Shown piece by piece: positions 4,734-4,796 of a stretch of 16,048 nt of DNA (positions within the stretch are counted from its first letter, which is position 1; each line of letters starts with the position of its first letter). Source of the stretch: a virus. Taxonomy: Duplodnaviria; Heunggongvirae; Uroviricota; Caudoviricetes. A program made the position numbers and the translations under genes. The notes below the pieces were generated by a model. That model ran no database searches and had not been told where the DNA came from. It was given only the letters and a program-made list of their open reading frames with translations. Where the stretch lies: positions 1-16,048 of the IMG/VR virus record IMGVR_UViG_2636415477_000004. One strand, given 5' to 3'.

Positions 4734-4759
4734 CCCTGTTCACCCTGTAACCATCATGA

Positions 4760-4779
4760 ACCGCTGCGGCGGTTTTTTT
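4760..4779 (+). terminator. Terminator-like hairpin plus T-run between terL and the protease-capsid gene
   Basis: ACCGC-tgcg-GCGGT stem followed by T7; immediately precedes the CAGGAGG Shine-Dalgarno of the next gene. Confidence 0.4.
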
Positions 4780-4796
4780 ATTTTCAGGAGGCTGAT

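What the first reader, a model, noticed from the sequence alone, without database searches (positions are those of the whole stretch)
4758..4796. Recurring hairpin / T-run / CAGGAGG cassette directly upstream of the capsid, tail tube and tape-measure genes
Three junctions share the same architecture and partly the same sequence: 4760-4796 (GAACCGCTGCGGCGGTTTTTTTATTTTCAGGAGG before the protease-capsid gene), 10867-10903 (hairpin, T6, ATTATCAGGAGG before the tail tube gene) and 12314-12352 (GAACCGCTGAGGCGGTTTTTTT before the tape measure). Placing terminator-like hairpins immediately 5' of the most abundantly needed structural genes is counter-intuitive for simple termination. They may be antitermination-sensitive attenuators, RNA processing or stabilising elements, or duplicated junction modules.
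Basis: seen in the sequence. Interest (0 to 1): 0.45.

Follow-up and report, generated by a model that had tools for sequence, protein, structure and literature searches.

The report
Terminator hairpins inside phage late operon
The three hairpin/T-run cassettes are real, strongly conserved terminator-type signals between the structural gene blocks of a common E. coli lambda-like prophage; the same kind of signal is already annotated at the same junctions in phage HK97, and its role has never been measured.

Summary
The window is the Rz-to-tail part of a lambdoid prophage late operon. On the sense strand, three of its four intergenic spacers carry a GC-rich hairpin followed by a T-run, then a Shine-Dalgarno site and the start codon. 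They sit before the protease-capsid fusion, the tail tube and the tape measure genes. Chance does not explain this. The strict scan gives 4 sense hits, 0 antisense and 0.65 expected per strand, and the spacers make up 1.6% of the operon.

In relatives (MCP 73-100%, tube 47-100%, tape measure 31-100% identical) the cassette is present before 39/39, 50/54 and 47/53 distinct variants. It is present before 0-1 variants of six other genes. Some stem changes are compensatory.

HK97's GenBank record marks "putative terminator" at the orthologous junctions. A phage L genome paper says the roles of such intra-operon terminators are unknown.

The best reading is Rho-independent terminators that stop RNA polymerase lacking Q modification and are read through during lytic growth. 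In two thirds of relatives the tape-measure one also closes an inserted moron gene.

Not supported: the "most abundant genes" rule (tape measure is low-copy), duplication of junction modules, and an isrK-like sRNA. This is an ordinary member of a known kind with an unmeasured function.

The parts
373..397 (+). Hairpin GAGCCTCGCGATGCGGGGCTT + TTTT after the Rz lysis gene (43-342). This is another sense-strand terminator-like site in the same transcription unit.
   Evidence: d = 28.0; Rz Pfam match
3072..4733 (+). Terminase large subunit gene; its stop codon lies 24 nt before the J1 hairpin
4758..4784 (+). J1 terminator-like cassette: 7-bp stem GAACCGC/GCGGTTT, loop TGCG, then T-run TTTTATTTT
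   Evidence: d = 44.5; conserved in 39/39 distinct relatives
4786..4799 (+). AGGAGG Shine-Dalgarno site, 5-nt spacer and GTG start of the protease-capsid fusion gene (4797-6734)
6744..6781 (+). GGAGG + 9-bp hairpin (6749-6770, no T-run) + 8 nt + ATG of the 73-codon ORF, directly after the capsid gene stop
   Evidence: d = -6.2; 47 distinct variants keep the arrangement with different stems
10825..10852 (+). Weaker tandem hairpin GGTCAC-GGT-GTGACT spanning the gp17 stop codon, followed by TTTTCTTTTTTT
   Evidence: d = 17.9; not conserved in distant relatives
10867..10887 (+). J2 terminator-like cassette: 5-bp GC stem CCCGC/GCGGG, loop CGCGT, T6
   Evidence: d = 32.4; 50/54 distinct relatives; RNAalifold finds the same helix, with compensatory changes in 3 of 6 pairs
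10894..10906 (+). AGGAGG Shine-Dalgarno site and ATG of the major tail (tube) gene (10904-11620)
12313..12334 (+). J3 terminator-like cassette GAACCGC-TGAG-GCGGTTT + TTTT, starting 7 nt after the stop of tail assembly gene T (12024-12305)
   Evidence: d = 17.4; 47/53 distinct relatives
12341..12355 (+). GGAG Shine-Dalgarno site and ATG of the tape measure gene (12353-15595)

Best explanation
The three cassettes are Rho-independent (intrinsic) transcription terminators embedded in the Q-antiterminated late operon of a lambdoid prophage.

Any RNA polymerase that has not been modified by Q at the late promoter is released at the U-tract. That covers read-through, spurious starts and moron promoters in the lysogen. 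The capsid block, the tube-chaperone block and the tape-measure/tip block are therefore expressed only through Q. Q-modified polymerase reads through in lytic growth, and the next gene is translated from its own strong ribosome-binding site, which abuts the U-tract.

At the T/tape-measure junction the same resident terminator also ends the transcript of the moron gene that most relatives carry there.

Shown: anatomy, polarity, conservation and context. Inferred: that termination happens, that Q overrides it, and what this is for.
For: Anatomy is canonical. Each cassette has a GC-rich 5-7 bp stem, a 4-5 nt loop and a contiguous T-run. The discriminant is positive at only 5 of 335 operon windows, and J1, J2 and J3 are among them.

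Polarity fits transcription. Strict hits are 4 sense and 0 antisense in the window, and 108 versus 28 in 313 kb from 31 non-redundant relatives.

Conservation is junction-specific. The cassette is present before 39/39 capsid, 50/54 tube and 47/53 tape-measure variants, but before 0-1 variants of portal, hc, gp10, gp17, G and M, with about 0.2 expected from shuffles. The T-run is at least 5 long in 38/38, 52/54 and 47/52 variants, and there are 6, 25 and 34 distinct stems. Compensatory changes keep the helix.

The tape-measure junction shows the terminator in use. Of 51 distinct variants, 34 carry an inserted sense-strand ORF that ends just before the hairpin. The two variants that lack a hairpin next to the tape measure gene have reverse-oriented inserts and a sense terminator right after T instead.

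HK97's record annotates 'putative terminator' at the orthologous junctions. Morons are described as carrying their own promoter and terminator for expression from repressed prophages (PMC3594210).

A Q-type antitermination gene lies about 9 kb upstream on the same strand in a 96.8%-identical relative. No sense-strand sigma-70-like promoter is predicted in the window. Q-modified polymerase bypasses terminators (PMC4825925; PMC7547250).
Against: No transcript 3' ends were examined; the only evidence is sequence.

The hairpins are modest (-7.5 to -10.2 kcal/mol), so termination may be partial.

Insulation does not explain why a terminator sits after terL rather than before terS, nor why the tube-gene terminator is kept in junctions where no moron lies upstream.

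The fixed 20-26 nt distance from stem to start codon could reflect a translational or processing role rather than simple compaction.

Lambda has no spacer before V or H. A Burkholderia relative has no spacer before its capsid or tube genes. The arrangement is therefore not essential to this kind of operon.

Authors who know these phages say the roles of such terminators are not known.
Confidence: 0.55

Rival explanations
1. The cassettes work mainly at the RNA level after read-through. The hairpin blocks 3'-to-5' exonucleases for the upstream segment. The U-rich single strand next to it is an RNase E cleavage and/or ribosomal protein S1-binding stretch. The long late transcript is thereby cut into separately stable, strongly translated capsid and tube messages.
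For: The abundant genes are bracketed by hairpins. The capsid gene has J1 before it and the 6749-6770 hairpin after it. The tube-G-T block has J2 before and J3 after. HK97 and ECP1 have hairpins on both sides of the capsid and tube genes. The stem-to-start distance is narrow (20-26 nt), and the U-run directly abuts a strong AGGAGG site. The post-capsid hairpin is conserved without a T-run, so a hairpin alone is selected there.
Against: A contiguous T-run next to the stem is kept in more than 90% of variants. Termination needs that; a 3' barrier does not. The tape measure is a low-copy protein yet has the same cassette. No cleavage or half-life data exist. The narrow spacing is also what minimal spacers would give.
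Confidence: 0.2
2. They are leaky attenuators that act during lytic growth. Each removes a fraction of polymerases and sets a descending mRNA gradient along the operon, as the rplL-rpoB and rpsU-dnaG internal terminators do in E. coli (recalled from general knowledge).
For: The hairpins are weak to moderate. J3 precedes the low-copy tape measure and tip genes. HK97 has further terminators before I and J. The phage L genome paper names partial termination as one possibility.
Against: J1 and J2 lie directly before the two most abundant virion proteins, which is the wrong direction for a gradient. Q-modified polymerase is terminator-resistant. From memory, Sampson and colleagues (PNAS 1988) attributed lambda late protein ratios to translation initiation rather than to mRNA level; I could not retrieve that paper.
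Confidence: 0.12
3. They are DNA-level leftovers with no present function: terminators left by lost morons, or short junction modules copied between spacers by recombination.
For: The T/tape-measure spacer is a moron slot in 34 of 51 distinct relatives. In L098 two near-identical terminators flank a KilA-N moron in the gp17/tube spacer. J1 and J3 of the window are 21/22 identical.
Against: Junction occupancy is 89-100% across relatives down to 31-47% protein identity, including moron-free spacers. Pairing is kept through compensatory changes. Strand polarity is strict. Cross-junction near-identity occurs at about 1% among unrelated cassettes, so it needs no duplication.
Confidence: 0.06
4. One or more cassettes are the 3' end of an Hfq-binding small RNA derived from the end of the upstream gene (isrK-like).
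For: There is a weak Rfam match to isrK at 12267-12334 (27.1 bits, E = 0.019 for the window). A terminator hairpin with a U-tail is an Hfq-binding module (PMC4104026). The sRNA PasB is encoded inside the same operon of the EPEC PP6 relative.
Against: The score is far below isrK's gathering score of 50, and the match is carried mostly by the terminator stem. Real isrK lies just downstream of the Q-like gene. No sense-strand promoter is predicted. PP6 structural genes have base means of about 0.6-27 in uninduced EPEC, and no RIL-seq entry for these loci appears in the held tables. PasB lies antisense in the I-J spacer, outside the window.
Confidence: 0.03

Closest known systems
'Putative terminator' features in the late operon of phage HK97 (GenBank/RefSeq NC_002167; Juhala et al. 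2000)
   Same: The junctions are the same: tail terminator to major tail gene (6692-6719) and just before the tape measure gene (8398-8422). The layout is the same: hairpin, T-run, SD, ATG. The flanking genes are homologous (tube 67%, tape measure 52% identical)..
   Different: HK97 has a separate protease and capsid gene, with terminators after portal and after capsid and none between terL and capsid. Its tape-measure terminator follows the gp15 moron, whereas the window has no moron. None of these sites has been tested experimentally, as far as I could find.
Lambda tR' / Stx-phage tR' and Q antitermination (6S RNA, StxS)
   Same: Each is an intrinsic terminator in the late transcription unit that stops unmodified polymerase and is read through by Q-modified polymerase (PMC7547250).
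   Different: tR' sits directly after the late promoter and produces a defined short RNA. The window's sites lie 10-20 kb further down, between structural genes, with no promoter next to them.
Moron terminators (HK97 gp15 moron between tail chaperone and tape measure genes)
   Same: The position is the same as J3. In 34 of 51 distinct relatives an inserted ORF ends at this terminator.
   Different: The window's spacer is 47 nt and holds no ORF or promoter. The terminator is resident without a moron.
Intra-operon terminators of P22-like phages (phage L genome paper, bioRxiv 10.1101/2020.10.05.325894)
   Same: A predicted terminator lies inside a single-promoter late operon at a module boundary. 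The authors propose the same two candidate roles and say the roles are not known.
   Different: The phage type (podovirus) and the junction (end of the procapsid module) both differ.
Lambda D-E and E-FI spacers
   Same: Lambda has a hairpin plus T7 directly before its major capsid gene E (6098-6117) and a hairpin after E (7163-7180).
   Different: Lambda has no spacer or hairpin before V or H.
isrK Hfq-binding RNA (Rfam RF01394)
   Same: The terminator stem has a similar sequence, and there are two weak upstream helices.
   Different: The match is below the family threshold and in a different genomic context. The window's site is not a member.

Membership tests
Intrinsic (Rho-independent) terminator | GC-rich stem-loop (about 5-10 bp stem, 3-8 nt loop) | tested here: met
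   J1 has 7 bp including 4 GC pairs and J2 has 5 GC pairs. J3 has the same stem as J1. Energies are -10.2, -7.5 and -8.4 kcal/mol.
Intrinsic (Rho-independent) terminator | U-tract immediately 3' of the stem | tested here: met
   The window has T7, T6 and T7. The longest T-run is at least 5 in 38/38, 52/54 and 47/52 distinct relatives.
Intrinsic (Rho-independent) terminator | Oriented with the transcription unit | tested here: met
   4 sense and 0 antisense hits in the window; 108 versus 28 in relatives.
Intrinsic (Rho-independent) terminator | Positive hairpin/T-tail discriminant (d'Aubenton-Carafa type; formula recalled from memory) | tested here: met
   d = 44.5, 32.4 and 17.4. Only 5 of 335 operon windows are above 0.
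Intrinsic (Rho-independent) terminator | RNA 3' ends or polymerase release at the U-tract | not testable with these tools
   Sakai Term-seq data exist (PMC7547250), but no tables are held.
Q-antiterminated lambdoid late operon | Q-type antiterminator gene upstream on the same strand | tested here: met
   The gene is outside the window. In a relative with 96.8% identity over 92% of the window, an 'antitermination protein' gene lies about 9 kb upstream, followed by holin, lysozyme and Rz genes.
Q-antiterminated lambdoid late operon | One co-directional array from lysis to tail genes without internal promoters | tested here: met
   The structural genes lie on the + strand, mostly overlapping or abutting. 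There are 0 sense-strand sigma-70-like sites (a simple consensus scan).
Q-antiterminated lambdoid late operon | Read-through of the internal terminators by Q-modified polymerase | not testable with these tools
   Inferred from lambda and Stx-phage biology.
Moron | Extra ORF with its own promoter and terminator between two conserved late genes | tested here: not met
   The window spacers are 63, 66 and 47 nt and the ORF listing (50 aa or more) shows no ORF confined to them. No sense-strand promoter is predicted. The feature is met in 34 of 51 relatives at the tape-measure junction.
isrK sRNA (RF01394) | Reaches the Rfam gathering score | tested here: not met
   27.1 bits against 50.
isrK sRNA (RF01394) | Located just downstream of the Q-like gene with its own promoter | tested here: not met
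   isrK lies downstream of antQ (PMC4825925). The window hit lies between T and the tape measure gene, with no predicted promoter.
Operon-internal attenuator (rplL-rpoB type) | Downstream genes are needed in lower amounts than upstream genes | tested here: inconclusive
   This fits J3 (tape measure and tip) but not J1 or J2 (capsid, tube). It rests on known virion stoichiometry, not on a tool result.

The most novel reading that the evidence does not exclude
The cassette is a dual-use module. In the prophage it is a Q-gated stop that keeps the capsid and tail-tube proteins from leaking. Such proteins are reported triggers of bacterial anti-phage sensors (recalled from general knowledge, not tested here). 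After read-through, the same hairpin plus U-run becomes a processing, stability and translation boundary that carves out separately stable, strongly translated capsid and tube messages. That would explain why it sits about 22 nt before exactly these starts in nearly every enterobacterial relative.
Probability: 0.15. Interest if true: 0.55.

Novelty: new member of a known kind. Interest (0 to 1): 0.27.

Why it matters
This prophage module matches sequence in about three quarters of complete E. coli genomes (4004 of 5426 have a match; 729 hold a copy covering at least 80% of the window), including Stx-phage relatives. Its structural operon carries signals that standard annotation omits. Specialists acknowledge intra-operon terminators in phage late operons but have not explained them. 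The near-universal, junction-specific conservation found here gives three short, well-defined targets. They can be used to test whether such sites insulate prophage structural genes, tune stoichiometry or shape mRNA decay. They also mark the tape-measure spacer as a predictable slot for moron genes. The finding itself is not surprising.

Tried and rejected
- isrK membership. The Rfam hit at 12267-12334 is below threshold and in the wrong context.
- PasB or other Pas sRNAs. PasB of the EPEC PP6 relative lies antisense between I and J, outside the window, and its probe sequence is absent from the window. PasA, PasC and PasD lie near Q and the holin gene.
- RIL-seq and RNA-seq tables of EPEC. PP6 structural genes are nearly silent when uninduced, and no chimeras for these loci appear in the held (truncated) files. 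This is uninformative.
- EHEC Hfq-CRAC sRNA list. Its filter excludes sense sites within 100 bp of a CDS, so it cannot test the cassettes.
- Sakai Term-seq. No supplementary tables are held.
- Juhala et al. 2000 and Sampson et al. 1988 could not be retrieved. What I say of them is from memory or from the HK97 record.
- Duplication of J1 and J3. The empirical rate of cross-junction near-identity is about 1%, so duplication is not compelling.
- The hairpin inside gene M (15790-15809) is conserved only in the window's own clade and is probably incidental.
- The first IMG/VR scan returned only capsids 96-99% identical. Diversity came from the phage collection, one genome-contig scan and a second IMG/VR scan seeded with a 76%-identical capsid.
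- A virulent (Q-less) comparator with a homologous tube gene was sought. ECP1 turned out to be HK97-like, so that test was not done.

Full report
**What the window is.** All structural genes lie on the + strand. In order they are:
- the end of Rz (43-342)
- a KilA-N gene (544-1065)
- a reverse DUF3950/YlcI gene
- an HNH gene
- terS (2512-3075) and terL (3072-4733)
- a protease-capsid fusion (4797-6734; Peptidase_S78 + Phage_capsid)
- a 73-codon ORF and portal (6946-9369)
- four head-tail genes ending with tail completion gp17 (10493-10837)
- the major tail subunit (10904-11620), G and T (to 12305)
- the tape measure (12353-15595) and M

The module matches sequence in 4004 of 5426 complete E. 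coli genomes, and 729 hold a copy covering at least 80% of the window. It also occurs in Stx-converting phages and in prophage PP6 of EPEC E2348/69. In a relative 96.8% identical over 92% of the window, a Q-type antitermination gene lies about 9 kb upstream on the same strand, followed by holin, lysozyme and Rz genes. The window is therefore the distal part of a lambdoid late operon.

**The observation.** Most gene pairs overlap or abut. Only four spacers in the operon exceed 25 nt: terL-capsid (63 nt), capsid-ORF73 (44 nt), gp17-tube (66 nt) and T-tape measure (47 nt). Three of them hold a hairpin followed at once by a T-run, then a Shine-Dalgarno site and the start codon. The fourth holds a strong hairpin without a T-run.

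A strict scan finds 4 sense-strand sites, 0 antisense, and 0.65 +/- 0.71 per strand in dinucleotide shuffles. A hairpin/T-tail discriminant (formula recalled from memory) is positive in only 5 of 335 windows:
- J1: 44.5
- J2: 32.4
- J3: 17.4
- a weaker tandem hairpin over the gp17 stop codon: 17.9
- a site inside gene M: 27.8

The J1 and J3 hairpins are 21/22 identical. Two corrections apply: CAGGAGG is shared only by J1 and J2, and the tape measure is a low-copy protein (established virion stoichiometry).

**Relatives.** I collected 188 loci: close E. coli prophages, a second capsid clade about 76% identical, prophages of at least ten other named bacterial genera, HK97, ECP1, lambda and two other phages.

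With one automatic criterion, a terminator-like site lies within 60 nt before 39/39 distinct capsid-gene variants, 50/54 tube-gene variants and 47/53 tape-measure variants. The figures for other genes are 0/44 (portal), 0/52 (hc), 0/52 (gp10), 0/56 (gp17), 1/37 (G) and 0/9 (M). Shuffles give about 0.2.

Protein identity to the window goes down to 73%, 47% and 31% respectively. Stems differ, with 6, 25 and 34 distinct arm pairs. The T-run stays contiguous with the stem. The last stem G/C lies mostly 17-26 nt from the start codon.

On an unfitted MAFFT alignment of 29 tube-junction variants, RNAalifold predicts the same helix, and 3 of 6 pairs keep pairing through changes on both sides. With my 8-pair structure, 87% of cells pair, against 80% in shuffles (0 of 500 reach it) and 33-54% when the partner is slid. 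The core CCGC/GCGG is largely invariant, so the covariation support is moderate.

Between the two capsid clades the third stem pair changes from A-U to C-G. Across 313 kb from 31 non-redundant relatives, strict hits number 108 on the sense strand and 28 on the antisense strand.

**The tape-measure junction.** Of 51 distinct T-to-tape-measure spacers, 17 are short (33-52 nt) and hold only the hairpin and T-run, as in the window. The other 34 are 277-1688 nt long. Nearly all of these carry a sense-strand ORF that starts some tens of nt after the T stop and ends just before the terminator, and the terminator keeps its place about 22 nt before the tape measure start.

The sampled inserts look like lipoproteins and small membrane zinc-ribbon proteins. 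HK97's gp15 moron and a YebO-like gene in a Klebsiella phage sit in the same slot. Two spacers lack a hairpin next to the tape measure gene. Both have reverse-oriented inserts, and both carry a sense terminator within the spacer upstream of the tape-measure start (directly after T in one of them).

One Enterobacter prophage has a KilA-N moron in the gp17-tube spacer, flanked by two similar terminators. The terminator is therefore a resident of the junction, and morons use it.

**What is already known.** The HK97 record annotates 'putative terminator' at the orthologous junctions: before the major tail gene, after the gp15 moron before the tape measure gene, and also after portal, after capsid, after the tube gene, and before I and J. 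The layout there is the same: hairpin, T-run, SD, ATG.

Lambda has a hairpin plus T7 just before its capsid gene E and a hairpin after it, but no spacer before V or H. [quoted passage not shown] It proposes partial termination, or stopping transcription that started without antitermination.

Morons are described as having their own promoter and terminator for expression from repressed prophages. Q-modified polymerase bypasses terminators.

**Interpretation.** I commit to this reading: these are intrinsic terminators that act on polymerase lacking Q and are read through in lytic growth. They make each structural block Q-dependent, and at the tape-measure junction they close moron transcripts (confidence 0.55).

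The anatomy, the polarity, the kept T-run, the junction specificity and the moron arrangement all support it. That termination occurs, and what it is for, are inferences.

This reading does not explain well why the capsid and tube junctions are so strictly occupied, nor why the spacing to the start codon is so narrow.

The main rival (0.2) is an RNA-level role after read-through. The hairpins would act as 3' barriers, and the U-run as a cleavage or S1-binding stretch that sets apart stable, strongly translated capsid and tube messages. The bracketing of those genes by hairpins favours this. The kept T-run and the low-copy tape measure count against it as the sole role.

The remaining rivals rank lower:
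- Leaky attenuation in lytic growth (0.12) fits only J3.
- Functionless scars or duplicated modules (0.06) conflict with the conservation and the compensatory changes. The J1/J3 similarity needs no duplication, because cross-junction near-identity occurs in about 0.5-1.5% of cassette pairs.
- An isrK-like sRNA (0.03) fails the family threshold and the context test.

**Verdict.** This is a correct observation of an ordinary, already annotated kind of element, and its function is still unmeasured. It is a new member of a known kind, of low to moderate interest.

Noticed in passing
window 6744-6781: Directly after the capsid gene stop lies GGAGG, then a 9-bp hairpin with no T-run (6749-6770), then 8 nt and the ATG of a 73-codon ORF. 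All 47 distinct variants in relatives keep 'GGAGG - hairpin - short spacer of about 7-10 nt - ATG' with different stems. The hairpin may bring a distant SD site close to the start codon (as I recall for T4 genes 38 and 25) and/or protect the 3' end of the capsid message.
   Followed up: partly
window 15790-15814: A terminator-like hairpin GGCATGGTGGTTACCGTGCC + TTTTT lies inside gene M (discriminant 27.8). It is identical across the window's own clade. It is absent from 13 other distinct M genes, and Providencia M genes have a different hairpin elsewhere. It is probably incidental.
   Followed up: partly
window 373-397: A hairpin plus TTTT lies right after Rz, ahead of a KilA-N gene (544-1065), a reverse DUF3950/YlcI gene (1618-1875) and an HNH gene (1857-2222). 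The late transcript must pass another terminator and a moron-like patch before reaching terS.
   Followed up: partly
window 10825-10852: A second, weaker hairpin spans the gp17 stop codon and is followed by TTTTCTTTTTTT. This makes the gp17-tube spacer a tandem site in the window's clade only.
   Followed up: partly
relatives, e.g. L019 17742-18155, L097 8179-8514, L085 9522-9755, L107 (HK97) 8203-8391: The T-to-tape-measure spacer is a moron slot in 34 of 51 distinct relatives. The inserts include a lipoprotein-like protein with a weak PEGA match, small membrane proteins with a zinc ribbon, and YebO/gp15-like proteins.
   Followed up: partly
L098 6190-6207 and 6964-6977: Two near-identical terminators (CCCGCT[C/T]CGGCGGG + T-run) flank a KilA-N gene inserted between gp17 and the tube gene in an Enterobacter prophage.
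   Followed up: no
L083 (E. coli E2348/69 PP6), about 8260-8345: The published Hfq-dependent sRNA PasB lies antisense in the I-J spacer of a prophage whose tail genes match the window. This is downstream of where the window ends.
   Followed up: partly
L106 (lambda) 6098-6124 and 7163-7180: Lambda has a hairpin plus T7 directly before its major capsid gene E and a hairpin directly after it. I found no study of either.
   Followed up: no
window 4776-4779, 12331-12334 and relatives: T-run length varies by 1-3 bases among near-identical prophages (T6-T8 at J1, T7-T9 at J3). This looks like slippage and could alter termination efficiency.
   Followed up: no
L190 (Burkholderia phage vB_FUB47a): This distant relative, with a 39%-identical protease-capsid region, has no spacer before its capsid or tube genes. 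Its spacers lie after them, and the post-capsid spacer holds a hairpin without a T-run. The 'hairpin before the gene' layout is therefore specific to a lineage.
   Followed up: partly
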